A stretch of 63,641 bases of DNA from a virus. Taxonomy: Duplodnaviria; Caudoviricetes. Under the pieces are notes generated by a model. The model made no database searches and was not told where the DNA came from. It worked only from the letters and a program-made list of their open reading frames with translations. The stretch covers positions 1 to 63,641 of the IMG/VR virus record IMGVR_UViG_3300015203_000009; one strand, given 5' to 3'. The translations under genes and the position numbers were made by a program. This document shows positions 3,842 to 56,589 of the stretch, piece after piece (the first letter of the stretch is position 1; every line of letters starts with the position of its first letter).

Positions 3842-3917
3842 CGGAAGAGGAAGCCCTAAAACTGTGGCTGGAAGACGCGCTTGAAATGAACCGACGCAAT
3901 TTTCTTCGCCACACTAA

Positions 3918-5090
3918 ATGACCAGCCTTCGTAATTATCAGGAGGAAGCCACCGTGTTTCTTTTCCCGCGCAACCGGGGCTGCGTTGTCGCGCCGGCCGG
4001 CTCGGGAAAAACGGTGATTGGCGCGCGGGCGGCTGCCTATGCGGCGTGCCGGGTGTGGGCGAAGGAAAAGCGCGAGGTGAAGCTGGCGTGGGTATGTGGG
4101 ACATTGGAGCAAAAGATGCAGGGAATAAAGGCCCTGCAGGCGGAAGAGTGCTCGGTGCCGGTGGACATTCGCGTCGAGTGCTATGCGGCCAAACTCGATT
4201 TGAGTGATGTGGATATTGTGATCGTGGACGAGTGCCATCACGTACCCTCAGACACCCTAGGGGAGATGCTCTCCAAGCTGAAAACGGACGCAATTTTGTA
4301 CGGGCTCACGGCCACGCCGACTCACAGCGACCCGCTGAGAAATGCCTTGGTTGATCTGACATTCAAGGAATTTTTTGTCATCGACCGGGCGCGCGTTGAA
4401 GCCTCAGGCCATTTGATAAAAGGAAAAGCCTTCATGTGCGACGTGGATGTGCCGGGACAATTCAACGCCGAGATAGAAGCCAAAACGCAGTATGAACTAG
4501 CCATTCGCATGCGCCGAATGCCGTGGTTGCCCCGCTTCGAACAGGAGCGGCGCATCAAGAATCAAATGACACAGGAGATGGTGCAAGCCAACGAAGCTCG
4601 CAATGCTTCCGCTGTCTTCTTGACCCAGCGCGAGGCGGCGGCCGGGGAGAGTGTTCTTGTGCTGGTGGCTTCCATCGAACACGGGAAGAAGCTAGTGGAA
4701 CGGATGCCGGGCAGCGAGATTGTGAACTCCAAGCTTCCAAAGAAAAAACGTGCCCAGTTGGTGGAGGATTTTCGTAGCGGGGCTTTGCGCATTCTCGTTG
4801 CAACCAGCCTGTTGGATGAGGGGGCCGATTTTCCAAGAGCCTCGCGTCTGATACTTGTTGCGGGCGGACGCTCCGCTGGAAAATTGGAGCAGCGCGCTGG
4901 GCGCGTGCTTCGCCCATTCGAAGGCAAAAACGGCGGCGTTATTTACGATTTTCTCGACCGGGGGGCGACGTTTGCGCACGCACAGGCGAAAGCGCGGATG
5001 AGAGTGTACGAGACGCTTGGATATGCCCCCGAAATTATTTTTACAAATTCCCTCGCCACATCACAAACACCTACTATTGTCAACCCTTAG
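3918..5090 (+). CDS. Superfamily 2 (DExH) helicase
   Basis: LRNYQ, APAGSGKT, DECH, TATP, LLDEGAD, QRAGRVLR. Confidence 0.93.
   Translation: MTSLRNYQEEATVFLFPRNRGCVVAPAGSGKTVIGARAAAYAACRVWAKEKREVKLAWVCGTLEQKMQGIKALQAEECSVPVDIRVECYAAKLDLSDVDIVIVDECHHVPSDTLGEMLSKLKTDAILYGLTATPTHSDPLRNALVDLTFKEFFVIDRARVEASGHLIKGKAFMCDVDVPGQFNAEIEAKTQYELAIRMRRMPWLPRFEQERRIKNQMTQEMVQANEARNASAVFLTQREAAAGESVLVLVASIEHGKKLVERMPGSEIVNSKLPKKKRAQLVEDFRSGALRILVATSLLDEGADFPRASRLILVAGGRSAGKLEQRAGRVLRPFEGKNGGVIYDFLDRGATFAHAQAKARMRVYETLGYAPEIIFTNSLATSQTPTIVNP
5053..5080 (+). promoter_or_regulatory. Class A promoter TCGCCA-N16-TATTGT
   Basis: Motif copy at the end of the helicase gene. Confidence 0.65.
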
Positions 5091-8458: not shown

Positions 8459-9034
8459 ATGCCAACCGGAATTTATCAACGAACTGTAGTCGGTCGATTG
8501 CGAAAAGTTATTCGGCCTCCGTACGAGAAGGACGGGGTGCTGCATATCCCGCTGACGCGCGGCATGGTGGCTTTGGCCTCTCCAGAGGACCGAGGACAGT
8601 TGGAGAAGTATAATTGGTCGGCTCAATTTTGTGACGGGAATTACTACGCCGCGCGCCGGTCATTGGGTGAGAATGGGAAAACAGGACTGGTGCTCATGCA
8701 CCGCCAACTGCTCGGGCTCAAAAAGGGCGAGCTCGGCGACCACGCAGACCGAAACAGGTTGAACAACCAAAGATATAACCTCCGGCTGGCTACCTTTTCT
8801 GAGAATGGATGTAACAGAACACCCTCTCAAAAGCCTAGAAAACTCGGGACAAAAATCGGCGTGTACTACCTACCCAGATTGAATCAAAGTGCTCCGTGGT
8901 CCGCGCGCGTAGTCAAGCACGGCATATCGTATTATCTGGGATATTTCGAAACCGAAACCGAGGCAGCAATCGTGCGTGACGAAGCAGCAAAAAGGCTGCA
9001 CAGAAAATTTGCAGTGTTAAATTTTCCCACATGA
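8459..9034 (+). CDS. HNH-AP2 homing endonuclease
   Basis: LMHRQLL...DHADRNRLNNQRYNLR; AP2 domain W.A......YLGYFETE.EAA...D.AA..LH..FA.LNFP. Confidence 0.9.
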   Translation: MPTGIYQRTVVGRLRKVIRPPYEKDGVLHIPLTRGMVALASPEDRGQLEKYNWSAQFCDGNYYAARRSLGENGKTGLVLMHRQLLGLKKGELGDHADRNRLNNQRYNLRLATFSENGCNRTPSQKPRKLGTKIGVYYLPRLNQSAPWSARVVKHGISYYLGYFETETEAAIVRDEAAKRLHRKFAVLNFPT

Positions 9035-11220
9035 ATCGAACCATAGCAGCGGATTATGAGACGCCTTACGGAGATGACTTCTCCGTTGTTGGCCTCGGTT
9101 ACGACCGCTACGCACGCGACCCCCGTTGCGAGCCTTATCTTTTAAGTGTTTGTGACGGGTCGGAGGTGTGGGCAGGCCATCCCCGAGATTTTAATTTTTC
9201 TTCGCTGGAAGGAGCGAAGCTCGTGAGCCACAACAGCGCATTCGAAGAGGAAATTTCTTTAGGCGCGACGGAACGCGGGCTGTTCACTGTTCCGGGCCTT
9301 AAACGCTGGGGCATGGACCACTGGTTTTGCTCGTTGAACATGAGCGCTTACTTATGGAATGTGCGAAGCCTCAAGGATGCAGTGAAAGTGGGCTTGGACG
9401 TGGACCTTTCAAAGGGGGTTCGTGACCGCGCTAAAAACAAAAGCGTCGAGGACATGAAGCGGGAAGGTTGGTACGACGACATGCTCAAATATTCCAAGGA
9501 AGATGCCATCAACTGCTGGCGGCTCTGGGACAAGCACAATTCGAAGTGGCCGGAGTTTGAGCGCCGCCTGTCGCGCCTGACGATAGATCAGGGAAGGCAT
9601 GGCGTGCGCATCGACCTCGAAGCTCTCGCATTCGGCATCGAGCAGATGCAGAAGGTGATTTTCACCGCCACCTCCAACCTGCCATGGATCGCGCGCGGCA
9701 ACAAGCCCGCCTCGCCCATCGGCATCGCCGAGGAATGTCGGCTGGTGGGCATCCCGTGCCCGCCCGTGAAGGCGCACAACGCCGAGGCTGCCGCCGAGTG
9801 GGAGGAGATTTACGCCCCGAAGCACAAATTCGTGCTCGCTCTGCGTAATCTGCGCAAGGCGAAGAAAGCCCTCGCAACCTTGGAGACCATCAAGCTTCGG
9901 CTGCGCCCGGACGAGACGATGGCGTTCAGCCTGAAGTATGCCGGCGCGCACACGCTGCGCTGGTCGGGCGACAGCGGCGTCAACATGCAGAACCTCGCCA
10001 AGGAACCGATGTTGATTGACCAGAATACGTCTTTTGTTTTCGACCCGAAAACCATCCAGCCGATGGTGGAGGAATTTTCCAAGGGGCATGCGGGCGAGCG
10101 GGCGCACGGGACATTGGCAAATGGCACCACCTTCTTCGATTTTAGGGGACTCATCATCGCGCGGCCCGGCAAAAAGATTGCGGCCGTGGATGAGGGCCAG
10201 ATTGAGCCGCGCTGCCTCAATTGGATAGCGGGCAACACGGCGATGCTGAAGATGATGGCGGAAGGATTCGCCATCTACGAGGCACACGCGCGTGAGACAA
10301 TGGACTGGAAGGGGGGCGTCCTGAAGGACGAGAACAAAAAAATGTATTCCCTCGCCAAGGCGCGCGTATTGTCCGGCGGCTATCAGGTGGGGTGGAAAAA
10401 ATTTATTGTTGCTGCCATGACAATGGCGCAGCTCGACATCACCGAGGGCGACGCCGATTTCGCACTGGCTGTTTCTGTCGACAAAAAAATCCATCGCCGC
10501 CAGAAGAACGCCAAGGGCAAGTGGGAATATCTCAGCGCGCCAGAAAACATCACCGAACCCATCAGCAACACCTTTCTTCGGCCCACGGCAGACTTCGGCG
10601 CGCAGGCGGAAGAGTGCGTTTTTCTCTGGAAGGAAAAAACGGACAAGCGCACGGGTGAAATTTCGAAAAAACTCATTGCACTCCCCGTGTACGGCATGCG
10701 CTCCCGCATCACCATCCAAGAATACCGCGCCTCCAACCCTTTGATTGTGGCCGTCTGGAACAAATTTAAGGATGTCTTGAAAAATTCCGTGGGCGGCGAC
10801 CTTGTCGTGGAAGGCCCGCACGGGGGCACCCTCACCTACCGCGACATCCGGGCCTCGCGCGTGAAGCAGAAGGATGATGACGGCGAGGAATACGAAACGA
10901 CCCAATACACTTATCAGGACGGCTGGAAGCGTTCGAAGCTCTATGGCGGTCTGATGACAGAAAATCTCATCCAGTGGGTGGCGCGCATGGTGTTTGCGGA
11001 ACACATGCTGACACTGCACGACATGCTGAAGGCGGAGGACGAGACGCAGGGTGTGCTATTCTCGGCTCACGACGAGGCCGTGGCCGAGATCAATGACCCT
11101 GGCGAGAATGCAGCGGCCCGGATAAAGCAGCTTGAGAACCTGTTTTCGATTACCCCGATCTGGATGCCCGGGCTGCCGCTGAAAGCCGAAGGTCACATCA
11201 AGGGCCGCTACTTCAAATGA
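9031..11220 (+). CDS. DNA polymerase family A with 3'-5' exonuclease
   Basis: ExoI DYET, ExoII HNSAFE, ExoIII Y...D; TLRWSG, NMQNL; motif A DEGQIEPR; motif B AKARVLSGGY; motif C HDE. Confidence 0.92.
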   Translation: MNRTIAADYETPYGDDFSVVGLGYDRYARDPRCEPYLLSVCDGSEVWAGHPRDFNFSSLEGAKLVSHNSAFEEEISLGATERGLFTVPGLKRWGMDHWFCSLNMSAYLWNVRSLKDAVKVGLDVDLSKGVRDRAKNKSVEDMKREGWYDDMLKYSKEDAINCWRLWDKHNSKWPEFERRLSRLTIDQGRHGVRIDLEALAFGIEQMQKVIFTATSNLPWIARGNKPASPIGIAEECRLVGIPCPPVKAHNAEAAAEWEEIYAPKHKFVLALRNLRKAKKALATLETIKLRLRPDETMAFSLKYAGAHTLRWSGDSGVNMQNLAKEPMLIDQNTSFVFDPKTIQPMVEEFSKGHAGERAHGTLANGTTFFDFRGLIIARPGKKIAAVDEGQIEPRCLNWIAGNTAMLKMMAEGFAIYEAHARETMDWKGGVLKDENKKMYSLAKARVLSGGYQVGWKKFIVAAMTMAQLDITEGDADFALAVSVDKKIHRRQKNAKGKWEYLSAPENITEPISNTFLRPTADFGAQAEECVFLWKEKTDKRTGEISKKLIALPVYGMRSRITIQEYRASNPLIVAVWNKFKDVLKNSVGGDLVVEGPHGGTLTYRDIRASRVKQKDDDGEEYETTQYTYQDGWKRSKLYGGLMTENLIQWVARMVFAEHMLTLHDMLKAEDETQGVLFSAHDEAVAEINDPGENAAARIKQLENLFSITPIWMPGLPLKAEGHIKGRYFK

Positions 11221-11885
11221 ACAATTTTTGCGCAGGTAGTATAAAGAACACGCCGGGCTTCCAGCCCGGAGATGGCGGTGCAAATCCGACCTCTGCGCTC
11301 CATTTCAAAAAAGAAGACTATTGGGTTAAATCAGTGGATTTGAGACTGGCTCAAGCTATGGTGGTCAGACTCCACTACTCCCGTGGCGGGTCTAACACTG
11401 CCTGCTACACCCACGGACTTGTGCACAAACCGTCAGGAAAAGTTGTTGGGGTTGCTTGGTGGCTTCCGCCGACTCGCGTAGCGTGCGAGTCCGTGGACAG
11501 AGAAAACTGGAAAAAAGTTTTGTCACTCACGCGTCTGGTTATTGAGCCTGATGTTCCCCAGAACGCTTGTAGCTTTTTGTTGGCTCATTCAGTGCGGTTG
11601 ATTCGAAAAGAAGGGCGCTTCGGCGCTCTCGTCACCTACGCGGACGAAAGTCAAGGCCACACTGGAACCATCTACCGGGCTGCTGGGTGGGAATATGTTG
11701 GTCGCACCGGACCTTATCCGCGCTGGGTGGATGCGGAAGGTCGTCAACGCGCTCCTAAGGCTACCAAAAATCGCACCAAGGCCGAGATGGAAGCCCTCGG
11801 GTACGTCAAAACTGGGAGTTTCTTCAAACACAAATTCGTACTCCGGGCGAACCCCAATTGTAAAAATCTCCTCGCCAGTAGCTAA
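11217..11885 (+). CDS. mom: Mom-like (GNAT-fold) DNA adenine hypermodification enzyme
   Basis: HYS, LTRL...D.P.N..SFLL, VTYAD..QGHTGTIYRAAGW.YVG; coupled to the polymerase gene. Confidence 0.8.
   Translation: MNNFCAGSIKNTPGFQPGDGGANPTSALHFKKEDYWVKSVDLRLAQAMVVRLHYSRGGSNTACYTHGLVHKPSGKVVGVAWWLPPTRVACESVDRENWKKVLSLTRLVIEPDVPQNACSFLLAHSVRLIRKEGRFGALVTYADESQGHTGTIYRAAGWEYVGRTGPYPRWVDAEGRQRAPKATKNRTKAEMEALGYVKTGSFFKHKFVLRANPNCKNLLASS
11230..11302 (+). tRNA. Non-canonical tRNA-Gly(TCC) nested in the 5' end of the mom-like CDS
   Basis: GCGCAGG-TA-GTAT-AAAGA-ACAC-G-CCGGG-CTTCCAG-CCCGG-AGAT-GGCGG-TGCAAAT-CCG(A)CC-TCTGCGC-T-CCA. Confidence 0.85.
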
Positions 11886-11899
11886 ATTCCTGATACACT
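11872..11899 (+). promoter_or_regulatory. Class A promoter TCGCCA-N16-TACACT
   Basis: 11 nt upstream of the primase ATG at 11911. Confidence 0.7.
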
Positions 11900-11910
11900 A
11901 CCCCTGCTTA

Positions 11911-14133
11911 ATGCCGCTCTTTGCCCTCCGTAACCTGTCCTCGTCCGCCGTTGAGCCGTGCATGCCGTGGACCTACACCCAAGCCGCCCCCGACCATGTC
12001 AAAGGAAAAGAAAACAAGAAGGCGCGCGACAAATGGATCAATTGTCCGGAAACACAGAGCCAGTGTTATTCGGCGTTCGAAGGTGTTAACGCTGCGCTCC
12101 GTATCTCCGAGCCCAAGATTGGCGGAGAGGAAGGCAATCCTCCCCTCAAGCTGCACGCCTTCGTCGCGGACATTGACTGCCCTGTCTCCCAGCAGGAACT
12201 TGCGACCGGGATTGGTCGGCTTGATTTTAAACCCAACTACTACGAAATCACGCTCTCAGGGAATGCGCGGCTCGTCTGGCTCTTTGAAGCCCCCATTTCC
12301 TTTCCCAATCGTCGCTTTGCCGTAGAGTTTTTGAGACTAGCCCTTGGGCGATTGCACCCGGACCACGTGGCGGCGGGCTTCGACAAGCCGGCATGGGAAG
12401 AGCCAAACAGATATTACACCAACAGCGGCGAGTGGCTGCAAATAAGTGCTGAAGCACGAATTCCGAAGGAGCTGCTGGACGGCTGGGTGGTGGAGGTGGC
12501 GGAGAAGCACGTGTGGAGAAAAGACAAGGGAGCAATTGATCTTCCCCTCCCGGTCGTCGAGGCCGAGCTGCTGAAGAAGTGGTCCCAGATGAACTGGCCG
12601 GGTGACTTCGTGGAAGGCTCGCAGGGTCCGTCGTTCTGGCTGGAAGGCTCGACGTCGCCGAAAAGTGCTGTGGTGAAGCCCACGGGACTTTTCACCTTCT
12701 CCGCCCACCAATCGAAGCCGTTCTACAGTTGGTCCGACTTGCTTGGCAAGGATTTTGTCGAGAAGCACGCCGCCGAGCTGATGGGCAAGGCCGTCGAAAA
12801 CATTTATCACGACGGCAGCAAATACTATCGGACGGATGGACACGGCTCGTGGAAGAATTTCACAAAAGAAGACGTAGTTTTGCACCTCACCACCGACCGG
12901 GGACTCTCCGCTGTCAAGGACGGCGGGGCCTCCGAAATCAACCGAGCCCTCTGCTACATCCAGAATTGGCAGGGCATCGACGGCGCGGCCCCCTTTGTCT
13001 TCCAGCCCCCGGGCATCATCAAGAAGCAGGGTAGGACGTTCTTGAATACGCATACGCGGAAAGTGTTGAGGCCTTCCGATGAGAAAGCCGTCTGGGGGCC
13101 GAACGGAAATTTCCCCTTCATTTCCTCCCTGCTGGACGGTCTCTTCCATCCGGACAGCCTCCCCGCCAATCCCAAGGACTACCTGCTCGCGTGGCTCGCG
13201 CGTTTCTATCGCGGGGCCTACGAATTCAATCTGGAAAGCGGCCAGAGCCTTTTCTTCTTGGGCGCTCCCGGCATCGGCAAGACGTTTCTGTCGCAGGGCC
13301 TTTTTCCCCACCTGATGAGCGGCGGCACGGGCGCAGAGGCCTACCTGATGGGCGAGAGCGATTTCAACAGCGAGCTGTTCGAGACAGCCTTCTGGACGAT
13401 TGACGACAATTCCGCCACCGTCGACAACACCACACATCGCAAATTCTCGGCCATGGTGAAGAAAATGGCCGCCAACACTGTCTTCCAATACCATGCCAAG
13501 TTTCGCATTCCCTGTTCCGTCGACTGGCTGGGCCGGGTGTTCATCACCGCCAACGCTGACGAGCAATCTGCGCGCATCGTGCCCGATCTTTCCATCAACA
13601 TTCTCGATAAGATGCACATTTTCCGGGGCGCGGATAAGCCGGCGGTGGTGTTTCCAGACAAGCGCGGTTGCGAGGCTATCATCCGCAACGAGACGCCTTT
13701 TCTGGCGCGCTATCTCCTCGACTACGTGGCTCCGGCTTACGTCGTGGGCACCTCGCGCTTTGGCGTGAAGAGCTACCACGAGGTGTCGCTGATGAAGGTG
13801 GCCGAACAAAGTTCCGATACGGCCAGCTTCCGCGAGGTGATTGAGCACTGGCGCACGGTGTATTTCCAAGAGAAGCCCGATTTGAAATTCTGGCGGGGCT
13901 CGGCTTACGAGCTCCTGATGGAATTCCACAAGGATGCCTACGCCTCGGCGGCCGGCCTGCGCGGCCTCAATGCCGGCACGGTGGGGAGAAGCCTGATGGC
14001 GGTGAAGGCCAAGGGCATGCCCATCGAGGTGGTGGGAGGAGAAAGATTTCGCGAGTGGATAGTGTACAAGGATGACAAAATCCCAGCGGAGACACCCATT
14101 GTCTCCAAGGCCAATTCAACTTTCAGCAAATAA
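11911..14133 (+). CDS. Primase-helicase (N-terminal primase-like domain, C-terminal SF3/DUF5906-type ATPase)
   Basis: ADID and TLSGNARLVW; Walker A GAPGIGKT, FNSEL, WTIDD, FITAN; start reassigned to ATG 11911. Confidence 0.8.
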   Translation: MPLFALRNLSSSAVEPCMPWTYTQAAPDHVKGKENKKARDKWINCPETQSQCYSAFEGVNAALRISEPKIGGEEGNPPLKLHAFVADIDCPVSQQELATGIGRLDFKPNYYEITLSGNARLVWLFEAPISFPNRRFAVEFLRLALGRLHPDHVAAGFDKPAWEEPNRYYTNSGEWLQISAEARIPKELLDGWVVEVAEKHVWRKDKGAIDLPLPVVEAELLKKWSQMNWPGDFVEGSQGPSFWLEGSTSPKSAVVKPTGLFTFSAHQSKPFYSWSDLLGKDFVEKHAAELMGKAVENIYHDGSKYYRTDGHGSWKNFTKEDVVLHLTTDRGLSAVKDGGASEINRALCYIQNWQGIDGAAPFVFQPPGIIKKQGRTFLNTHTRKVLRPSDEKAVWGPNGNFPFISSLLDGLFHPDSLPANPKDYLLAWLARFYRGAYEFNLESGQSLFFLGAPGIGKTFLSQGLFPHLMSGGTGAEAYLMGESDFNSELFETAFWTIDDNSATVDNTTHRKFSAMVKKMAANTVFQYHAKFRIPCSVDWLGRVFITANADEQSARIVPDLSINILDKMHIFRGADKPAVVFPDKRGCEAIIRNETPFLARYLLDYVAPAYVVGTSRFGVKSYHEVSLMKVAEQSSDTASFREVIEHWRTVYFQEKPDLKFWRGSAYELLMEFHKDAYASAAGLRGLNAGTVGRSLMAVKAKGMPIEVVGGERFREWIVYKDDKIPAETPIVSKANSTFSK

Positions 14134-14939
14134 TGTACTACGGCACGTCAGAAAATCCGCCCGACCAAATTGTCTTCGCTCCCGGGGAAGAGAAAATCCT
14201 GTGGCGTGCCTATCGAAAAAGCGGGGACGTCGAGGCCCTGCGCAAACTCGTCCTGCGCTATCTGCCCTACGCCTTTTCCATTGCCAGCAAGTTCAAGGGG
14301 CCGCGCCTGTCTTTCGAAGATGCCACCTCGGCGGCCAACGCCGGACTCATGGAAGCCATTTCCACGTTCGTTCCGAGCAAGGGCAAGTTTATTGTGTATT
14401 GTTATTGGCCCATCCGCCGGCACACCTTGGAAGCACTCCTAGCAACATATCCGGTTAAATTGGGGTCTAGGATGAGAAAGAACATCCGCAAAAAAGACCT
14501 GTCGGGCAACAACAGCGACCTGAACGAGGCCTTTGCCCGCCTCGGCACCTACACCCCGCTGCAAAGTGGCGACACCTCCGTCGGCTATTCACAGGGCGCG
14601 GGCACTGTGGTGAAAGATAGCCAGAGCGTCGACCACGTGCATTGGAGCCCCGTCGTGCAGGCCTTGGGGCCGCAGCCGACGGCGGACGTCGAGGACTTTG
14701 CCCCCTCGCATGTCGAGGCCGTCGAGCGGGCGGATGAAGCCCTTGAAGTCCGACACTTTATAGAGACAGATGTGTTCACCGCGATTGAAAGGGCCGTCCT
14801 GAAAGCCCGCCATTATGTGGAGCCTCCCGAGGGGCTCGAACACTTGGCGAAAAGGTTGAATCAACCCAAACGAAAATTGTCCCTCGCCTACGACAGTGCG
14901 CTCCTCAAATTGAAGACACGATTTAATGCCCAAGGTTAA
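14133..14939 (+). CDS. Sigma-70-family factor (second copy)
   Basis: GDVEALRKLVLRYLPYAFSIASKF...FEDATSAANAGLMEAISTFVPSKGKFIVYCYWPIR; C-terminal region-4-like HTH. Confidence 0.82.
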   Translation: MYYGTSENPPDQIVFAPGEEKILWRAYRKSGDVEALRKLVLRYLPYAFSIASKFKGPRLSFEDATSAANAGLMEAISTFVPSKGKFIVYCYWPIRRHTLEALLATYPVKLGSRMRKNIRKKDLSGNNSDLNEAFARLGTYTPLQSGDTSVGYSQGAGTVVKDSQSVDHVHWSPVVQALGPQPTADVEDFAPSHVEAVERADEALEVRHFIETDVFTAIERAVLKARHYVEPPEGLEHLAKRLNQPKRKLSLAYDSALLKLKTRFNAQG

Positions 14940-44216: not shown

Positions 44217-44959
44217 CAGTAGTGGTTTTTTGGCTTAATGTTGTGCTTGGCGCGATACAGCGCGACGAGATGGTCTTTAACACTCGCTTTTTTAATCGAA
44301 TGAATGAAAATAGCATCGCGCAAAGAAACACATTCGGACATAACAGCGACGCCAAGTTCAGTTACTGTTTCGCAGGAGGCACAATGATGAAACCGGCGAT
44401 GGGGAACGCCGGCAAGCTTGCAGGCGGGTATCCACCACCAGTCAATGAAGGGAGTGGTTGGACACGCAATCATTCCGGCAGATGCATCTACGATTTTTTT
44501 CAGTGCCTCGCGGTGCAACCAGTAAGGGGGCTGCATCGCAACCTTGTCGAAGCCAACATGATACGTATCGGGAGGAAACTGTTTATGCCACTCTGGTAGA
44601 CACCTAAAATCATCAACCTCATTTGACCACACACAGTTTTTATCGTGGTAAAGATAATCGGGTATTTTAGCCGAAAGAACAAAACTATCGCTGTCATTCA
44701 ACAGAAACCAAGAGTGAGGGTATTCCTCGACAAGGAGCTTTAACTGGGCGTGCTGCCTGTCCCATGATTTTTGACCGTAGTATTCCACTAATCCAGCCTC
44801 CCGAGTGTGGTGTGGACCGATGTTTTTCACTGGAGAGTCTGTGGGAGAAATTATAACAACCGGAGCCTCGTGATGCTCGTATACAGGCAATAAATCCAGT
44901 ACCTGCTGTCTGTCACCGGCGTAACAATGGCATACCACTAACGTGTCTGGATTAAGCAT
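44216..44959 (-). CDS. Glycosyltransferase-like protein (GT-A fold)
   Basis: WFLLNDSDSF (DxD), FID, FIHSIK. Confidence 0.6.
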   Translation of the reverse strand: MLNPDTLVVCHCYAGDRQQVLDLLPVYEHHEAPVVIISPTDSPVKNIGPHHTREAGLVEYYGQKSWDRQHAQLKLLVEEYPHSWFLLNDSDSFVLSAKIPDYLYHDKNCVWSNEVDDFRCLPEWHKQFPPDTYHVGFDKVAMQPPYWLHREALKKIVDASAGMIACPTTPFIDWWWIPACKLAGVPHRRFHHCASCETVTELGVAVMSECVSLRDAIFIHSIKKASVKDHLVALYRAKHNIKPKNHY

Positions 44960-45509
44960 GGTGAATACCTTTTAATTTTTCAGCTGCTTTTCTGTTTCTG
45001 GTAGCTTTCATTTTGTCTTTCGTAGCTTGTGAAACAACGTGGCCCATCAACGTAGCACTTCGCTTCGCTCGTGTTTCGGGTCTGGCATTACTTATTTTAG
45101 TTGCCTCCCGGTGATTATGTTTCCAACTTTCTGAGCGAACGATTGCCCTGTTTGCATCTCTTATTTTTATTTTAGCCTCTTCTGAATGCCTCATCCCAGT
45201 AGACCCTTCTCCTCCGTCGGTGTGATTGCAAAGATTGTATCCCCGCAGACGGTATTCTTTGATCCAATATTTCTCGGCTTCCATGGCGTTTTCAGAGGAA
45301 AAACACTTCTGAATCACCCGCATATCCGGACGAAGATTCTCTTTAAGCAAACTCAATATCCATTTTTGTGAGTGAGTTTTTGCTCTGTGTCGGCTGGAAT
45401 ACACGTGAGATTTCAAACGGTCCGCCGAAAAATCTGCTTTACCAACATACCTCACCTCATTGTTTCTCGGGTCAATAAGCTCATACACGCAGAATTCGGC
45501 TGTGTTCAT
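44952..45509 (-). CDS. GIY-YIG homing endonuclease with NUMOD3-like motif
   Basis: VYELIDPR..EVRYVGK...R...H; E..WI; N.TDGGEG..G..HSEE.K.KI. Confidence 0.9.
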   Translation of the reverse strand: MNTAEFCVYELIDPRNNEVRYVGKADFSADRLKSHVYSSRHRAKTHSQKWILSLLKENLRPDMRVIQKCFSSENAMEAEKYWIKEYRLRGYNLCNHTDGGEGSTGMRHSEEAKIKIRDANRAIVRSESWKHNHREATKISNARPETRAKRSATLMGHVVSQATKDKMKATRNRKAAEKLKGIHHA

Positions 45510-46420
45510 TTGCTGCGGCGGTCGTTGGGAGAATAAAAATAATCCTCGATGGTGTTGCGTAGGCCTTCCTGCAGTGTCGTTTTTGAAACGAATCCGAGTG
45601 CTTTAAGTTTCGAAACATCAAACGTCTTTTTTGGAATTCCCGTCGGCTGCGAAGCGTCCCACTCCACGCCGTATTCGAATTCCATGATGCTCACGAGCGC
45701 GTCCGCGAGCTCCTTGATGGAAGTGCCGACGCCCGTGCCGATGCTGATGAGGTCGGGGCTGTCGTATTTTTCCAACACAAGCTTGATAGCGTCAGCGGCG
45801 TCGTCGACATACATGAATTCTCTCACCGCAACTCCCGAACCCCACACGCGCAGGGGGATTTTATTCGCGTTGGCGTGGTCGAGGCGCGCGATGAGCGCGG
45901 GCACGACGTGCGCAGAAATTCCGTAATTATCGTTCGGCCCGTAAAGGTTGGCCGGAGCGCACGTCGTCCAATGATGTCCGTATTGCGAGCGATAGGCGCG
46001 GCAGAGAAAATATCCGGCAAGCTTCGCCGCCGCGTACGCCGCGACATCAGGCTCGAACGGCCCCGTCAGCAAACTTTCTTCCTTCACCGGCACCGAAGCC
46101 TCGCGCGGGAACAGGCACGACGTGGCCACATTCACCAACTTCTTCACTCCCACCGCATGCGCGGCCGCGAAGACGCTATTCTGAATCTCCAGATTTTGGG
46201 TGAGGAATTCCACGGGCTCATCGCGGTTGGCTTTCACTCCTCCAACTCGGGCGGCACAATTTATTACGAAATCCGGACGATGCTCCTCGAAAATATACTT
46301 GGTGTATTTCGCATCCCTAAGATCGCAGTTTGTCGTGACAATCTGATAGTCGTCCGAGCACTGGCGGATGACAGCGCGGCCGAGAAGTCCGCGATGGCCT
46401 GTAACAAGGAGCTTCATCAA
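45506..46420 (-). CDS. fcl: GDP-L-fucose synthase
   Basis: VTGHRGLLG, AARVGGVKAN, TSCLFP, YAAAK, NLYGPNDN, HVVPALI, WGSG..VREFMYVDD. Confidence 0.92.
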   Translation of the reverse strand: MMKLLVTGHRGLLGRAVIRQCSDDYQIVTTNCDLRDAKYTKYIFEEHRPDFVINCAARVGGVKANRDEPVEFLTQNLEIQNSVFAAAHAVGVKKLVNVATSCLFPREASVPVKEESLLTGPFEPDVAAYAAAKLAGYFLCRAYRSQYGHHWTTCAPANLYGPNDNYGISAHVVPALIARLDHANANKIPLRVWGSGVAVREFMYVDDAADAIKLVLEKYDSPDLISIGTGVGTSIKELADALVSIMEFEYGVEWDASQPTGIPKKTFDVSKLKALGFVSKTTLQEGLRNTIEDYFYSPNDRRSK

Positions 46421-51295: not shown

Positions 51296-52327
51296 TCACA
51301 CCCCGAACGGAAGAATGCTTGCGCCCGGGCCGGCTTCTTTTTGTGCCAGCGCGTAGTCGCTGTCCACCATCAGCTTTACCAACTCCTTAAATCTCACTTG
51401 TGGCTGCCAGCCCAGCTTGGCTTCTGCCTTGGCCGGGTTGCCAACTAACAAGTCCACCTCCGCCGGCCGCTCGTAGCGCTCGTCGTGCTTCACGTACTTG
51501 CGCCAATCCAGCGACACCCACTTGAAAGCTTCCTCGACAAATTCGCGGACGGTGTGCGTCTCGTTCGTGGCGACAACATAGTCGTCGGGCTTCTCCTGCT
51601 GCAGCATCAGCCACATCATCTCGACGTATTCCTTGGCATAGCCCCAATCGCGCTTGGCGTCTAGATTTCCGAGAGTGACACTGTCTTGTAAGCCGAGCTT
51701 AATTCTCGTAGCAGCGCGGGTGATTTTTCGGGTGACAAATGTTTCGCCCCGGCGTGGACTTTCGTGATTGAAGAGGATGCCGTTAGAAGCATGAAGTCCA
51801 TAGCTTTCTCGATAGTTAACGGTGAGCCAATACGCGTACACTTTCGCACACCCGTACGGAGAGCGAGGCCAAAAAGGTGTCTGCTCTGTCTGAGGAACCT
51901 GCTGCACCTCGCCAAACATCTCGCTGCTGGCTGCCTGATAATATCGAGCCGTTTTAGCCAAACCAGAATTTCGAATTGCTTCGAGCAGTCGTGCGGTGCC
52001 GAGCCCACACACATCCCCTGTGTACTCGGGGACGTCGAAGGAGACACGCACGTGGCTCTGGGCTCCGAGATTGTAGATTTCGTCCGGGGCGATTTTGTAC
52101 AATAGGTTGGTGAGGGCGCTGCCGTCGCAGAGGTCGCCAAAGTGGAGGAAAAAGGAAACATTGTTGATTGCTGGGTTGTTGACGAGGTGGTCGATGCGGC
52201 CCGTGTTGAAGCTCGACGAGCGGCGCAGGAGCCCGTGCACCTCGTAGCCTTTTGCAAGGAGGAAGTCGGCGAGATAGCTGCCGTCTTGGCCCGTGATGCC
52301 AGTGATAAATGCGACGCGTTTTTTCAT
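51296..52327 (-). CDS. gmd: GDP-mannose 4,6-dehydratase
   Basis: [62 protein letters not shown]. Confidence 0.97.
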
Positions 52328-55116: not shown

Positions 55117-55368
55117 TTATGCTGGGTCGATTTGCCAAACGCTGTTGGCCGTGTAAAATTTATTTCCCTCGATTTTCTGGATGGCTGAAGAAGTGAAAAC
55201 GCCGGGGCGCTCGACGCCGTTTCGGTTGGTCCGCAACACCTCAATCTTGTGGCCCACTTCGAGCGGAGCCCATAGCGTGCCTTTCAATTCATACCCGGTG
55301 AAAAGCGCTTTCGAATTCTCGGCGTGTGCCGAAAGTTTTTTCAGAGTGATTTCAGTTCCAACGCTCAT
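55117..55368 (-). CDS. Hypothetical protein
   Basis: MSVGTEITL...TSS.IQKI....FYTANSVW. Confidence 0.6.
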   Translation of the reverse strand: MSVGTEITLKKLSAHAENSKALFTGYELKGTLWAPLEVGHKIEVLRTNRNGVERPGVFTSSAIQKIEGNKFYTANSVWQIDPA

Positions 55369-55745
55369 TTGATTTTCGCTTTCCAGCGAATCAAGCAGGA
55401 ATATATCTGGGTGGCGAGGAAGCCACGAAGCAGAGCGGCCGTCTCGCCGCAGCCTTTTGGACCCCACTTGATTTCCCGATATTCGAAGACGTCATCAACA
55501 GCGTGGCTCATCTCGTGGGCAATCAACTCGTGGCTGAGACAGCGGCGTTCGAACATCATCAACCCCTTTCGTCCCCGAGAAATCCACACCCCCGCCGGGT
55601 CAAAATTCTCCGCCACCTCGAAATTGTAGTTCACGTGGGCGTGAAGCTCGCGCTCCTCCACCGTCGCCCGGATACTGTCGCAAAGACAGAGCCGGACGTC
55701 GAAGTCATAGATGGGAAGGGAGAAGTTGTGGAAGAAGGGTTTCAA
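55365..55745 (-). CDS. HExxH-motif protein
   Basis: LIAHEMSHA...E..A.L. Confidence 0.6.
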   Translation of the reverse strand: MKPFFHNFSLPIYDFDVRLCLCDSIRATVEERELHAHVNYNFEVAENFDPAGVWISRGRKGLMMFERRCLSHELIAHEMSHAVDDVFEYREIKWGPKGCGETAALLRGFLATQIYSCLIRWKAKIK

Positions 55746-55751
55746 GAAAAA

Positions 55752-55857
55752 TGGCGATGGGGGCAGGTGCTTGCACCCTGCGCTGCTGAGTCTGCTACCC
55801 GTCAGCCCGGGAACGGTTGCGACCCGTTGTCCGCTTTAATATCTAAGCTACCCCACC
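55752..55857 (-). ncRNA. Aberrant 106-nt tRNA-like RNA
   Basis: GGTGGGG/CCCCATC acceptor, G, CCA; D stem GCTT/AAGC; AACGG/CCGTT; GCTGA/TCAGC; GCAGG/CCTGC. Confidence 0.7.
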
Positions 55858-55865
55858 AAAAGAAG

Positions 55866-56171
55866 TGGACGCGAGGGAAGTCGAATCCCTGTGCTTCTCG
55901 CCTTCTTCGTCGCAGTCAACATGCTTGTAGGGATGCCGGATTTCTCTGACGTCCTCCACCATCCGGGAGCTGGCCCGGCCCATTATACTCTAACGCTGTC
56001 GCTAACAGCGGCCGTTAGGCCGCGAGCTTCATCTGCTCCGGGACCGTGGCCCGGAAATCCACTTCAATGACGTTGTCATTTGATTTTTTGCCACGGCAGA
56101 TTAAAGAGCCGCCATGACGGGCTCTGCATGCAGCGACGCGTTGTTCGAAAAGTAGAATCCAGAACGCGCCC
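55866..56171 (-). ncRNA. ssrA: tmRNA
   Basis: 5' GGGCGCG-TTCTGGATTCTAC; 3' AGGGA-TTCGACT-TCCCT-CGCGTCC-A; G3.U70 pair; tag frame ...NDNVIEVDFRATVPEQMKLAA-stop. Confidence 0.92.
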
Positions 56172-56189
56172 GAAAATTTGAAAGAACGA

Positions 56190-56510
56190 AAAATTGAGCC
56201 GGCGTCGCGAGACAGAATGCGACGCCGGGAGCGTCTGTTCCGCCCTGTCAATGGCCCTCAGGTCCGGCACGTACAAACAACAAGCGTGCCGGGAAATTCT
56301 CCCCTCGGGCTCAGCCCAAAATATTCGGGCAGCCGAGGGGAACGCAATGAAGGCACGTCTGCCAGCCGACCGAGACTACACTCTACTCGGATTCTGATGC
56401 CTCAGGTGTTTCTCGAAGGGAGTCGCTGAATAAGACAGCTTACACCATCGGTTGCGCTGTGCCACAGACCAAGGTCGGGGCGCGTGTGCGTCCCTTATTG
56501 CTGTCAGACA
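56190..56510 (-). ncRNA. Candidate unknown structured RNA
   Basis: Several GC-rich stems between tRNA and tmRNA; no convincing ORF; strand inferred from neighbours. Confidence 0.55.
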
Positions 56511-56514
56511 CAAT

Positions 56515-56589
56515 TGGGTGCGGGGGTCTGAATTGAACAGACGGCCTGAGCGTTATGAGCGCACTGCTCTACCACTGAGCTACCCCGCA
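56515..56589 (-). tRNA. tRNA with CAT anticodon (Met or Ile2)
   Basis: TGCGGGG-TA-GCTC-AGTGGTA-GAGC-A-GTGCG-CTCATAA-CGCTC-AGGCC-GTCTG-TTCAATT-CAGAC-CCCCGCA-C-CCA. Confidence 0.9.

What the first reader, a model, noticed from the sequence alone, without database searches (positions are those of the whole stretch)
55752..55857. Aberrant 106-nt tRNA-like RNA right after tmRNA
Seen: 7-bp acceptor stem, G73 and CCA, U8-A9 and a D stem. It also has no D-loop GG, an over-long anticodon arm (loop GUCGCAA), a large variable arm (5 bp plus 12-nt loop) and a 9-nt T loop GUGCAAGCA that shares UGCAA with the mom-nested tRNA. Known: a long variable arm is the main SerRS determinant and G73 is typical of tRNA-Ser. 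Inference: a second non-translating aminoacyl carrier, a decoy for anticodon nucleases, or a decaying tRNA.
Basis: partly seen in the sequence, partly recalled or inferred. Interest (0 to 1): 0.7.

Follow-up and report, generated by a model that had tools for sequence, protein, structure and literature searches.

The report
Odd serine-type tRNA-like gene beside phage tmRNA
A soil phage carries, right after its tmRNA gene, a 106-base RNA gene that folds like a long-armed serine-type tRNA but has altered loops, so it is probably a tRNA mimic rather than a working decoder, and its role is unproven.

Summary
On the minus strand, 55857-55752 folds into a five-arm cloverleaf with a 7-bp acceptor stem, G73 and an encoded CCA. 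It starts 8 nt after the discriminator of a genuine tmRNA (Rfam 67.7 bits) and ends 7 nt before the next ORF.

ARAGORN and all 4227 Rfam families miss it, and its folding z-score is only -1.2. Three results argue against chance:
- The full five-element descriptor was matched only by the candidate in 1.36 Mb of related DNA, and never in three shuffles.
- A covariance model built from seven independent tRNA-Ser genes ranks it second in the whole window, end to end (17 bits, above noise of 12.2 or less).
- The plus strand does not fold this way.

It most resembles a class-II tRNA-Ser (G73, long variable arm). It differs in anticodon (CGC), the absence of a D-loop GG, an extended bulged anticodon arm, and a UGC T loop like that of staphylococcal non-proteogenic tRNA-Gly.

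I found no homologue in 250 fetched loci or four IMG/VR pattern scans, so there is no covariation evidence and no expression evidence. My best reading is a tRNA-derived, non-decoding tRNA mimic. A decaying pseudogene is not excluded. Interest is moderate.

The parts
55752..55857 (-). Candidate 106-nt tRNA-like RNA (whole element)
   Evidence: The MFE fold is a cloverleaf. tRNA-Ser models R2 and R3 match 55857-55752 end to end. ARAGORN and Rfam do not call it.
55851..55857 (-). Acceptor stem, 5' strand GGUGGGG (nt 1-7)
   Evidence: Pairs with CCCCAUC at 55756-55762: 7 bp, one G.U.
55833..55848 (-). D arm (nt 10-25): stem GCUU/AAGC, loop AGAUAUUA, no G18G19
   Evidence: Sequence and fold.
55810..55832 (-). 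Anticodon arm (nt 26-48): AACGG-GUCGCAA-CCGUU plus two or three outer pairs across a 2-nt bulge; U33, anticodon CGC, A37
   Evidence: Sequence and fold. The 5-bp stem, 7-nt loop and U33/R37 criterion is met.
55782..55806 (-). Long variable arm (nt 52-76), 25 nt: GCUG..GGGU-AGCAG-ACUC..CAGC in the MFE fold, or alternatively 5 bp with a 12-nt loop
   Evidence: Fold. The two registers are possible because of the CAGCAGC repeat (read).
55763..55781 (-). T arm (nt 77-95): stem GCAGG/CCUGC, loop GUGCAAGCA. It can also be read as a G.A pair plus a 7-nt loop UGCAAGC, or in the MFE fold as a GCAA tetraloop hairpin.
   Evidence: Sequence and fold. The same UGCAA loop type occurs in the window's tRNA-Gly and in L023, L033 and L029.
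55752..55762 (-). Acceptor 3' strand CCCCAUC, discriminator G73 (55755) and encoded CCA (55752-55754)
   Evidence: Sequence.
55858..55865 (-). 8-nt U-rich spacer CUUCUUUU between the tmRNA discriminator (A, 55866) and G1 of the candidate; the tmRNA has no encoded CCA
   Evidence: Sequence and the Rfam tmRNA alignment.
55863..56171 (-). tmRNA gene (G3.U70 acceptor; tag reading frame ends ...EQMKLAA-stop)
   Evidence: Rfam RF00023, 67.7 bits against a gathering score of 47. ARAGORN missed it. The tag frame comes from the ORF listing.
56515..56589 (-). tRNA-Met (CAU), CCA encoded, same strand, at the head of the cluster
   Evidence: ARAGORN; Rfam 63.8 bits.
55365..55745 (-). Next ORF (126 aa, TTG start 7 nt after the CCA, contains HEMSH); marks the 3' boundary of the non-coding gap
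   Evidence: ORF list. phrog_1365, E 2.6e-6, covers residues 7-122. No Pfam family.

Best explanation
This is a real tRNA-derived gene: a diverged class-II, tRNA-Ser-like RNA in the phage's tRNA-Met / tmRNA cluster.

Inferred mechanism:
- It is transcribed with the tmRNA.
- RNase P cuts at G1. That also leaves the tmRNA with an 8-nt trailer to be trimmed and given CCA by host enzymes.
- The RNA ends in its own encoded CCA.

All five helices are intact. The parts a decoding tRNA needs are remodelled: there is no G18G19, the T loop has U54-G55-C56 (UGC), the T loop is widened or G.A-extended, and the anticodon arm is 2-3 bp longer with a bulge.

It therefore most likely does not decode. It more likely acts as a tRNA mimic: an RNA that tRNA-handling proteins still bind (RNase P, the CCA enzyme, possibly SerRS through G73, C11-G24 and the long variable arm), but which stays off EF-Tu and the ribosome. 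It could then serve as a decoy for tRNA-targeting host factors or as a non-ribosomal seryl carrier.

Shown: the anatomy, the position, the tRNA-Ser likeness, and that the fold is not chance. Inferred: transcription, processing, charging, non-decoding, and the role.
For: - The cloverleaf with a 7-bp acceptor stem, G73 and CCA is the MFE fold.
- The plus strand does not give it (z = -0.19).
- The element lies 8 nt after a genuine tmRNA, on the same strand as the tmRNA and tRNA-Met, and fills the gap up to the next ORF.
- The five-element descriptor was met only by the candidate among 9 hits with non-canonical T loops in 1.36 Mb x 2, and by 0, 0 and 0 hits in three shuffles.
- tRNA-Ser model R2 gives 23.7 bits (E about 0.003), rank 2 of 37. 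The other hits score 15.9 or less, apart from the tRNA-Met.
- Model R3, built from 7 tRNA-Ser genes none of which was fetched through the candidate's own pattern, gives 17.0 bits (E about 0.14), rank 2 of 29. That is level with the Rfam-supported tRNA-Gly (16.4) and above noise of 12.2 or less.
- The best global matches among 253 distinct tRNAs are tRNA-Ser.
- All helices pair without a mismatch, while the loops deviate.
- UGC T loops recur in other tRNA(-like) genes of this phage group: the window's tRNA-Gly, L023, L033/L069 and L029/L030/L081.
- Two relatives share a conserved tRNA-like RNA whose anticodon arm is a tetraloop hairpin, kept by compensatory changes (L003:3822-3894 and L082:2273-2345). 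Non-decoding tRNA-like genes therefore do exist in this group.
- UGC/UGU T loops mark EF-Tu- and ribosome-poor tRNAs in staphylococci (PMC7826273).
Against: - No Rfam family matches even at E <= 10 on 131 bases.
- ARAGORN fails even at 60% thresholds.
- The folding z-score is only -1.2, against -1.5 to -2.35 for four genuine tRNAs folded the same way.
- The unbiased model's E-value is marginal (0.14, and E-values from these models are rough).
- No homologue was found anywhere. BLAST of 161 loci found none. Model R1 on 87 sources gave a best foreign hit of E 0.7. Five whole viral records gave 0 of 5. Four IMG/VR pattern scans found none. So there is no covariation and no test of selection.
- Five other phage tmRNAs are not followed by anything similar.
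- Intact helices in a single sequence cannot separate selection from recent origin.
- The 44 ORFs scanned contain no partner enzyme.
Confidence: 0.45

Rival explanations
1. It is a decaying tRNA pseudogene: a former phage or host class-II tRNA (Ser, or Leu as in L098) that has lost its decoding features. It is still transcribed and clipped out only because it sits in the cluster, and it has no function of its own.
For: - It fails every standard tRNA detector.
- It lacks the conserved D- and T-loop nucleotides, and its anticodon CGC does not fit a Ser body.
- It is a singleton with no detectable relative.
- tRNA content next to the terminase gene varies freely among relatives.
- L098 has a normal-scoring long class-II tRNA with the same T stem and a near-identical acceptor stem.
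Against: - All five helices (29-31 pairs, two of them G.U) are free of mismatches, while the changes sit in loops. Neutral decay should hit stems too.
- The extra length is itself base-paired.
- The same UGC T loop is seen in several other tRNA-like genes of the group, which looks like a maintained type rather than random damage.
Confidence: 0.22
2. It is a cis-acting processing or punctuation element only. A tRNA-shaped fold gives RNase P a cleavage site that frees the 3' end of the CCA-less tmRNA and the 5' end of the downstream mRNA. The excised RNA itself is discarded.
For: - The tmRNA lacks an encoded CCA and is followed by an 8-nt U-rich spacer, then G1 of the fold.
- The next ORF starts 7 nt after the CCA, with no visible Shine-Dalgarno sequence.
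- tRNA-like folds used as processing signals are established elsewhere (recalled: the mitochondrial tRNA punctuation model, MALAT1 mascRNA, P1 C4 / P4 CI RNAs; none was checked in a call).
Against: - Five other phage tmRNAs in the group, three of which encode CCA, have no such fold behind them.
- An acceptor/T minihelix would be enough for RNase P, so the intact D, anticodon and 25-nt variable arms would be unnecessary.
Confidence: 0.1
3. It is not an RNA gene. The fold is a chance structure in a short spacer or 5' leader between the tmRNA and the next ORF.
For: - z = -1.2, with 21 of 200 shuffles folding as well.
- The four-element descriptor hits chance sequence about 3-9 times per 1.36 Mb x 2.
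- There is no Rfam or ARAGORN call, no homologue, and no RNA data.
Against: - The full five-element descriptor was never met by shuffles or by other non-tRNA sequence.
- Two tRNA-Ser models place it second in the window with exact 5' and 3' ends.
- It has the correct strand and position in a tRNA-type gene cluster.
- The opposite strand does not fold this way.
Confidence: 0.15
4. It is a working decoder: an unusual class-II tRNA with anticodon CGC that reads GCG on the ribosome. Its amino acid would be set by its body, so it might insert Ser at an Ala codon, or it might be recognised by another synthetase.
For: - It has a 5-bp stem, a 7-nt anticodon loop, U33 and A37.
- It has an encoded CCA.
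- Ser-type tRNAs with non-Ser anticodons are described as possible missense suppressors (allo-tRNAs; PMC5389517, abstract and passages read).
Against: - There is no G18G19.
- The T loop has G55 and is widened, the anticodon arm is lengthened and bulged, and position 32 is G.
- There is no G3.U70 for AlaRS.
- Ser at every GCG codon would also harm the phage's own GC-rich genes (inference).
Confidence: 0.08

Closest known systems
Bacterial class-II tRNA-Ser
   Same: - 7/5 acceptor/T architecture.
- G73 plus CCA, C11-G24, and a long base-paired variable arm.
- The acceptor GGUGGGG/CCCC(A/U)CC and the T stem GCAGG/CCUGC are as in tRNA-Ser genes of other viral contigs (L164, L182).
- Models built from tRNA-Ser find it end to end.
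   Different: - The anticodon is CGC, not NGA or GCU.
- The D loop has no GG.
- The T loop is GUGCAAGCA rather than UUCRANY.
- The anticodon arm is 2-3 bp longer, with a bulge.
- It is 106 nt against 83-93 nt for the 13 tRNA-Ser genes used here.
- It scores below Rfam's tRNA threshold, with no hit at all.
Staphylococcal non-proteogenic tRNA-Gly (NP1-3), the glycine donors for FmhB/FemA/FemB
   Same: - A UGC (or UGU) triplet in the T loop in place of UUC, so there is no pseudouridine-55.
- Position 19 is not G.
- These tRNAs are described as binding EF-Tu and the ribosome poorly while still being charged (PMC7826273, passages read).
   Different: - They are class-I Gly tRNAs of normal length, with a normal anticodon arm and a UCC anticodon.
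- That paper describes them as a lineage present only in staphylococci.
- No Fem-type transferase was found among the 44 ORFs scanned here.
- The resemblance is functional analogy, not membership.
Very long class-II tRNA-Leu(UAA) of a related phage contig (L098:3890-3996)
   Same: - It is about 105 nt and has an oversized variable region.
- The T stem GCAGG/CCUGC is identical.
- The acceptor is GGAGGGG/CCCCUCC against GGUGGGG/CCCCAUC. Pair 3-70 is A-U against U-A.
- It is preceded by a U-rich spacer (CCUUUU) after a long non-coding stretch downstream of the terminase gene.
   Different: - L098 scores 59.3 bits with Rfam tRNA and has G18G19, a UUCAAGU T loop, A73 and a normal anticodon arm.
- The model hit linking the two is only E 0.7.
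- There is no similarity in the variable arm.
- The T stem GCAGG/CCUGC is common among tRNAs of these loci.
Conserved tRNA-like RNA with a tetraloop in place of the anticodon loop (L003:3822-3894 / L082:2273-2345)
   Same: - It belongs to the same phage group (65% terminase identity) and the same terminase-proximal tRNA cluster.
- It has a cloverleaf outline with an acceptor stem and an ACCA/ACCU end.
- It cannot decode.
- ARAGORN does not call it.
   Different: - It is 73 nt and class-I sized.
- Its T loop is canonical (UUUAAAU / UUCAAAU).
- There is no sequence similarity to the candidate.
- It is supported by two sequences with compensatory changes, which the candidate lacks.
allo-tRNAs and other non-canonical Ser-type tRNAs (8/4 and 9/3 forms)
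   Same: They have a Ser-type body with a long variable arm and non-Ser anticodons. They are found in bacteria and phages and are proposed as suppressors or regulatory RNAs (PMC5389517, abstract and passages).
   Different: The defining 8/4 or 9/3 acceptor/T split is absent. The candidate is 7/5 (or 7/6 if the G.A pair is counted).
Stable tRNA-like RNAs in phage tRNA clusters (T4 species 1 and 2 RNAs) and phage tRNAs that escape anticodon nucleases
   Same: - These are extra RNAs encoded within a phage tRNA cluster and matured by the tRNA-processing machinery (T4: recalled, not checked in a call).
- Phage tRNAs with altered anticodon loops are proposed or shown to counter tRNA-cleaving defences (PMC10264068 and PMC11464382: search listing and start of abstract only).
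   Different: The anti-defence tRNAs described are working decoders that replace cleaved host tRNAs. As far as my four searches reached, a non-decoding decoy is not described.

Membership tests
Canonical tRNA (Rfam RF00005 / ARAGORN) | 7-bp acceptor stem, discriminator, 3' CCA | tested here: met
   GGUGGGG/CCCCAUC, G73, CCA encoded.
Canonical tRNA (Rfam RF00005 / ARAGORN) | D loop with G18G19 pairing to a T loop with U54-U55(psi)-C56 (elbow) | tested here: not met
   The D loop is AGAUAUUA. The T loop is GUGCAAGCA, with UGC where UUC is expected.
Canonical tRNA (Rfam RF00005 / ARAGORN) | 5-bp anticodon stem, 7-nt loop, U33, purine 37 | tested here: met
   AACGG-GUCGCAA-CCGUU. The arm continues for 2-3 more pairs across a 2-nt bulge, and position 32 is G.
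Canonical tRNA (Rfam RF00005 / ARAGORN) | Score at or above the curated threshold (29 bits) or an ARAGORN call | tested here: not met
   No Rfam match at E <= 10 on 131 or 1201 bases. ARAGORN makes no minus-strand call at 90, 80, 70 or 60% thresholds.
Class-II tRNA-Ser | Long base-paired variable arm and G73 | tested here: met
   25-nt variable arm with 8 pairs in the MFE fold; G73.
Class-II tRNA-Ser | Serine anticodon (NGA or GCU) | tested here: not met
   The anticodon as folded is CGC.
Class-II tRNA-Ser | Significant match to a profile of tRNA-Ser genes | tested here: inconclusive
   R2: 23.7 bits, E about 0.003, but 3 of its 13 training sequences were fetched with a pattern taken from the candidate. 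R3 (7 independent sequences): 17.0 bits, E about 0.14, rank 2 of 29. E-values from these models are rough.
Class-II tRNA-Ser | Charged by SerRS | not testable with these tools
   This needs an aminoacylation assay.
tRNA-Sec | 13-bp acceptor/T helix (8/5 in bacteria), 6-bp D stem, anticodon UCA | tested here: not met
   7-bp acceptor (U8 cannot pair with C95, which is in the T stem), 4-bp D stem, anticodon CGC. No Rfam tRNA-Sec hit.
allo-tRNA (8/4, 9/3) | Acceptor stem of 8 or 9 bp with T stem of 4 or 3 bp | tested here: not met
   7/5. The definition comes from PMC5389517.
Non-proteogenic (cell-wall) tRNA, staphylococcal type | UGC/UGU in the T loop instead of UUC; altered D loop | tested here: met
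   The T loop contains UGC and the D loop has no GG. The feature is as stated in PMC7826273.
Non-proteogenic (cell-wall) tRNA, staphylococcal type | Partner aminoacyl-tRNA transferase (Fem family) and weak EF-Tu binding | tested here: inconclusive
   No Fem-type or other aminoacyl-tRNA-using Pfam family appeared in 44 distinct ORFs scanned. About 13 ORFs between 26903 and 40962 and most ORFs under 140 aa were not scanned, and a host enzyme could serve instead. EF-Tu binding is not testable here.
tmRNA (the neighbour) | Rfam RF00023 at or above the gathering score, tRNA-like ends with G3.U70, tag reading frame | tested here: met
   67.7 bits against 47 over the full model. The acceptor is GGGCGCG/CGCGUCC with G3.U70. 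The frame ends ...KLAA-stop.

The most novel reading that the evidence does not exclude
The element belongs to an undescribed class of phage-encoded, non-decoding tRNA mimics. The class would be marked by a remodelled elbow (UGC T loop, no G18G19) and a disabled anticodon arm, and would sit in the terminase-proximal tRNA/tmRNA cluster. This member would be a Ser-type body that SerRS still charges but EF-Tu and the ribosome ignore. It would act either as a sponge for host tRNA-targeting defence nucleases or as a dedicated seryl donor for a non-ribosomal transferase.
Probability: 0.15. Interest if true: 0.8.

Novelty: new variant of a known kind. Interest (0 to 1): 0.42.

Why it matters
Phage tRNAs are now known as counter-measures to tRNA-cleaving defences, but the known cases are working decoders. 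If a phage keeps a tRNA-shaped RNA that cannot decode, it points to a second use of the tRNA shape: as a decoy, a carrier or a processing handle.

This phage group offers several test cases: this element, the tetraloop tRNA-like RNA of L003/L082, and tRNAs with UGC T loops.

There is also a practical point. Standard tRNA finders miss both this element and the neighbouring tmRNA (ARAGORN), so such genes go uncounted in viral metagenomes. If the element is only a decaying pseudogene, it is ordinary.

Tried and rejected
Searches for relatives of the phage
- Close relatives via single-protein patterns: none in IMG/VR for the terminase or the downstream 126-aa ORF.
- The terminase family is large: 418 proteins at E <= 0.001 among 8000 candidates.
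- The closest loci I could fetch are 68% (L002), 65% (L003, L082, L083) and 62% (L008) identical. One MAG contig is 59% identical.
- The INPHARED phage collection matched only the tRNA-Met (4 records).

Searches for a homologue of the element
- BLAST of the 106 nt against 161 loci: only self at E <= 1.
- Single-sequence model R1 on 87 of the 162 sources then held (814 kb). I left out near-duplicate loci and most of the distant metagenome loci at 36-39% identity. The best foreign hit was E 0.7.
- R1 on 5 whole viral records: 0 of 5.
- Four IMG/VR pattern scans taken from the element gave 53, 0, 8 and 24 stretches, none a homologue. The 17-mer anticodon hairpin recurs in an unrelated conserved RNA motif. 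The number of independent hits (2 groups) is about what I estimate chance would give for a collection of this size, judged from the 15-mer scan.
- The 200 nt after five other phage tmRNAs show nothing similar.

Sequencing runs
- Only the probable source run holds the stretch.
- No RNA holder is listed.
- The laid contigs show no variants.

Detectors and alternatives rejected
- ARAGORN at relaxed thresholds gave only a plus-strand 'tRNA-Ala' at 70% threshold. I rejected it: no CCA, the arms are in the wrong order, and the plus-strand fold has z = -0.19.
- tRNA-Sec and allo-tRNA readings were rejected on stem lengths.
- A terminator reading was rejected: the scan found no terminator-like site in 55752-55862, and the U run lies 11 nt from the T hairpin.

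Calls that gave nothing
- A MAFFT alignment of ten tRNA-Ser genes misaligned the 5' ends and was not used.
- Earlier-findings look-up and the 'relatives' search for a virus record were not available.
Full report
**Setting**

The window is one whole IMG/VR virus record of 63,641 bases, estimated 89% complete. The only sequencing run that holds the stretch is a soil metagenome, and it may be the source of this DNA.

On the minus strand the order is:
- a large-terminase-like ORF (58767-56887; phrog_2 weakly, E 0.0046);
- tRNA-Met CAU (56589-56515; ARAGORN, Rfam 63.8 bits);
- a 340-nt gap rich in hairpins;
- a tmRNA (56171-55863; Rfam 67.7 bits against a gathering score of 47, full model);
- the candidate (55857-55752);
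- a 126-aa ORF starting with TTG at 55745 (phrog_1365, E 2.6e-6).

The tmRNA has a G3.U70 acceptor stem and a tag frame ending ...KLAA-stop. It has no encoded CCA: after its discriminator comes CUUCUUUU, then G1 of the candidate. ARAGORN does not find the tmRNA.

**The observation**

- acceptor GGUGGGG/CCCCAUC (7 bp, one G.U), G73 and CCA;
- U8-A9;
- D stem GCUU/AAGC with loop AGAUAUUA (no GG);
- anticodon hairpin AACGG-GUCGCAA-CCGUU, prolonged by two or three pairs across a 2-nt bulge;
- a 25-nt variable arm;
- T stem GCAGG/CCUGC with the loop GUGCAAGCA.

The MFE structure is this cloverleaf (-41.8 kcal/mol).

Two refinements:
- The T loop can be read as a G.A pair closing a 7-nt loop UGCAAGC. 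That keeps the U54...A58 positions of a T loop, with G at position 55. In the MFE fold it is instead a hairpin capped by GCAA.
- The variable arm has two possible registers because of a CAGCAGC repeat.

I could not confirm that it is nested in a mom gene. It lies between ORFs 9031-11220 (a weak DNA_pol_A match below the cut-off) and 11695-14133 (DUF5906).

**Is it more than chance?**

Taken singly, the usual measures are weak:
- The folding z-score is -1.20, and 21 of 200 shuffles fold as well. Four genuine tRNAs folded the same way gave -2.35, -2.06, -1.52 and -1.88.
- No Rfam family matches at E <= 10, whether 1201 or only 131 bases are given.
- ARAGORN finds nothing on this strand at 90, 80, 70 or 60% of its thresholds.

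I wrote a descriptor (7-bp acceptor stem, NCCA, 5-bp T stem with a 7-9-nt loop, 3-4-bp D stem) and ran it on 1,361,859 bases of related loci plus the window, both strands.
- It gave 54 hits. 45 had canonical T loops.
- The other 9 had non-canonical T loops: the candidate, plus 8 others of which 6 are distinct.
- Three block-shuffles gave 3, 9 and 4 hits. That outline alone is therefore not rare.
- When I added an anticodon hairpin (5 bp, 7-nt loop, U at loop position 2, purine at position 6), only the candidate remained of the 9, and the shuffles gave 0, 0 and 0.
- I wrote the descriptor after seeing the candidate, so this count is post hoc.

Covariance models give an independent test.
- Model R2, from 13 tRNA-Ser genes found in fetched viral loci, was run with filters off over the whole window. 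It put the candidate second of 37 hits (23.7 bits, E about 0.003) with exact ends 55857-55752. The tRNA-Met scored 39.1, and all other hits scored 15.9 or less.
- Three of those 13 genes came from loci fetched with a pattern taken from the candidate. I therefore rebuilt the model from 7 tRNA-Ser genes with no such link (R3).
- With R3 the candidate was again second of 29 (17.0 bits, E about 0.14). It was level with the Rfam-supported tRNA-Gly (16.4) and above all other sequence (12.2 or less).
- E-values from these models are rough.

Strand and place add to this. The plus strand does not fold into a cloverleaf (z = -0.19). The element sits 8 nt behind a tRNA-type gene on the same strand and fills the non-coding gap. 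I conclude that the fold is very probably tRNA-derived and not a chance structure.

**What it resembles**

Among 253 distinct tRNAs that ARAGORN found in all fetched loci, the best global alignments were:
- tRNA-Ser(GCU) of L164;
- tRNA-Ser(CGA) of L182;
- tRNA-Ser(CGA) of L164, tied with the L098 tRNA-Leu.

That set is biased, because L163-L215 were fetched by the candidate's T-arm pattern and long tRNAs score higher in global alignment.

The acceptor stem, G73, the T stem and parts of the D arm (UUAAAGC against UUAAGGC) match those tRNA-Ser genes. The anticodon loop GUCGCAA differs from the Ser(CGA) loop CUCGAAA at positions 32 and 36.

One relative, L098 (60% terminase identity), carries a very long class-II tRNA-Leu(UAA) downstream of its terminase gene.
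- Rfam scores it at 59.3 bits over 104 nt; with its CCA it spans 107 nt (3890-3996).
- Its T stem is identical to the candidate's. Its acceptor is GGAGGGG/CCCCUCC, so pair 3-70 is A-U where the candidate has U-A.
- It follows a similar U-rich spacer.
- The model hit linking the two is only E 0.7, and the T stem GCAGG/CCUGC is common in these loci. Homology is possible but not shown.

**No homologue, hence no covariation**

The terminase family is large, but the close members (72-85% identity) are in assemblies I could not fetch. In what I could fetch (80 IMG/VR loci, 80 metagenome loci, one MAG contig) the results were:
- BLAST found nothing.
- Single-sequence model R1 found nothing significant in 87 sources or in five whole viral records (0 of 5).
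- Four pattern scans of IMG/VR found no relative.
- A tmRNA occurs in seven other loci, about five distinct. I inspected the 200 nt after five of them, and none is followed by a similar fold.

The element is, for now, a singleton.

**Context from the phage group**

Odd tRNA-type genes are frequent near the terminase gene in this group.
- ARAGORN reports tRNAs with 6-nt anticodon loops (L029/L030/L081, L062, L119) and a 94-nt tRNA with a 36-nt anticodon arm (L046; Rfam 46 bits).
- UGC T loops occur in the window's tRNA-Gly, in L023 and L033/L069 (Pro-type, with a compensatory change in the T stem) and in L029/L030/L081. By my reading, all of them also lack a GG in the D loop.
- L003 and L082 share a 73-nt tRNA-like RNA 75 nt after the terminase gene. 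Its anticodon arm is the hairpin UCGGG-AGUA-CCCGA. It is kept with compensatory changes in the T stem (C-G to U-A) and at acceptor pair 7-66. For L003 the fold has z = -3.82.

Non-decoding tRNA-shaped RNAs are therefore maintained in at least one branch of the group.

**How it most likely works**

Shown: the anatomy and the place. The rest is inferred.
- The RNA would be made as part of the tRNA-Met/tmRNA transcript.
- RNase P would cut at G1, which leaves the CCA-less tmRNA with an 8-nt trailer for trimming and CCA addition.
- The element would end at its own CCA, 7 nt before the next start codon.
- G73, C11-G24 and a long paired variable arm are the features I recall as SerRS determinants (recalled, not checked in a call), so charging with serine is plausible.
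- The missing G18G19, the G at position 55, the widened T loop and the lengthened, bulged anticodon arm argue against use by EF-Tu and the ribosome.
- The printed precedent is the staphylococcal non-proteogenic tRNA-Gly. Those genes have TGC/TGT in place of TTC in the T loop, the tRNAs lack pseudouridine, and they bind EF-Tu and ribosomes poorly while serving the Fem transferases (PMC7826273, passages).

I therefore favour a tRNA mimic that is handled by tRNA enzymes but does not decode (0.45).

I found no partner enzyme. Pfam scans of 44 distinct ORFs gave helicase, HNH, PD-(D/E)XK, a sigma factor, GIY-YIG, and a GDP-mannose dehydratase plus an epimerase. Nothing tRNA-related appeared. About 20 ORFs were not scanned.

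The rivals are:
- a decaying pseudogene (0.22);
- a chance fold (0.15);
- a pure processing signal (0.10);
- a real decoder of GCG (0.08).

**Novelty and verdict**

Aberrant tRNA-like genes in phage tRNA clusters are a known kind. This is a new variant: Ser-type body, CGC anticodon, UGC T loop, fused to the end of a tmRNA gene.

Four literature searches turned up no description of a tRNA-like gene directly behind a phage tmRNA or of a non-decoding phage tRNA decoy. Those searches cover only the held open-access library, and supplementary tables could not be read.

With a single sequence and no RNA data, the functional claim stays open. Interest is moderate (0.42).

Noticed in passing
window 55863-56171 (-): The phage tmRNA is found by Rfam (67.7 bits) but missed by ARAGORN. 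It has a G3.U70 acceptor stem and a tag frame ending ...EQMKLAA-stop, and it has no encoded CCA (ACUUCUUUU follows the acceptor stem). The tRNA-Met, the tRNA-Gly and the candidate all encode CCA.
   Followed up: partly
window 56172-56514 (-): The 340-nt gap between tRNA-Met and tmRNA has several long GC-rich hairpins, for example CCCCUCGGCUGCCC...GGGCUGAGCCCGAGGGG, and a terminator-like hairpin just before the tmRNA. It has no convincing ORF and no Rfam match above noise. It may be another non-coding RNA.
   Followed up: no
window 11229-11298 (+): tRNA-Gly(UCC) has the T loop UGCAAAU, no GG in the D loop and a mismatch in the T stem (Rfam 31.4 bits, just over threshold). It lies in the gap between a DNA-polymerase-A-like ORF and a DUF5906 primase/helicase-like ORF. 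It shares the UCC anticodon and UGC T loop with staphylococcal non-proteogenic tRNA-Gly.
   Followed up: partly
L003:3822-3894 and L082:2273-2345: A conserved 73-nt tRNA-like RNA lies 75 nt after the terminase gene in two relatives. Its anticodon arm is replaced by the hairpin UCGGG-AGUA-CCCGA (4-nt loop). There are compensatory changes in the T stem and at acceptor pair 7-66. The L003 fold has z = -3.82. ARAGORN and Rfam (gathering threshold) do not call it. A 17-mer scan of IMG/VR found no further member.
   Followed up: partly
L098:3420-3996: A promoter-like TTGACA-N17-TATAGT is followed by about 450 nt without an Rfam match and then, after CCUUUU, a very long tRNA-Leu(UAA): 107 nt with its CCA, and a variable region of about 35 nt. 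The terminase match in this locus spans 2.7 kb, and other family members carry intein-type insertions (P0048 has PF05203).
   Followed up: no
L046:4283-4376: A 94-nt tRNA (Rfam 46 bits) has an anticodon arm of about 36 nt (two 4-bp stems around a G.G mismatch, 18-nt loop). It lies directly before a tRNA-Met. It is another over-long anticodon arm in a distant member of the phage group.
   Followed up: no
L216, L217, L219, L221, L222, L223 and L218 (for example L217:10571-10907, minus strand): A conserved structured RNA in unrelated viral contigs contains exactly the candidate's anticodon hairpin AACGG-GUCGCAA-CCGUU. The hairpin is nested in a stem that covaries (CCACUUGGC/GCCUAGUGG against CCACCCGGU/GCCGGGUGG). 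In five of the seven loci an extended -10-like TGGTAnAAT lies upstream (L222 has TGTATAAT; L218 is cut off), and a terminator hairpin lies downstream. There is no Rfam match. The shared 17-mer is at about chance level for the size of the collection.
   Followed up: partly
window 51296-52327 (-) and 45506-46420 (-): The phage encodes a GDP-mannose 4,6-dehydratase (Pfam E 1.8e-141) and an NAD-dependent epimerase/dehydratase (E 1.2e-51). A GIY-YIG endonuclease ORF (44952-45509) sits beside the second. This looks like a deoxy-sugar nucleotide pathway inside the late gene block.
   Followed up: no
window 14133-14939 (+): An ORF has a sigma-70 region 2 match (E 5e-10). The phage may direct its own promoters, which could explain why no sigma-70 consensus promoter is seen ahead of the tRNA-Met/tmRNA cluster.
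   Followed up: no
L176 / L178 (about 4569-4642 in L176): A tRNA-Met in unrelated viral contigs also has the T loop UGCAAAU. UGC T loops are therefore not confined to this phage group.
   Followed up: no
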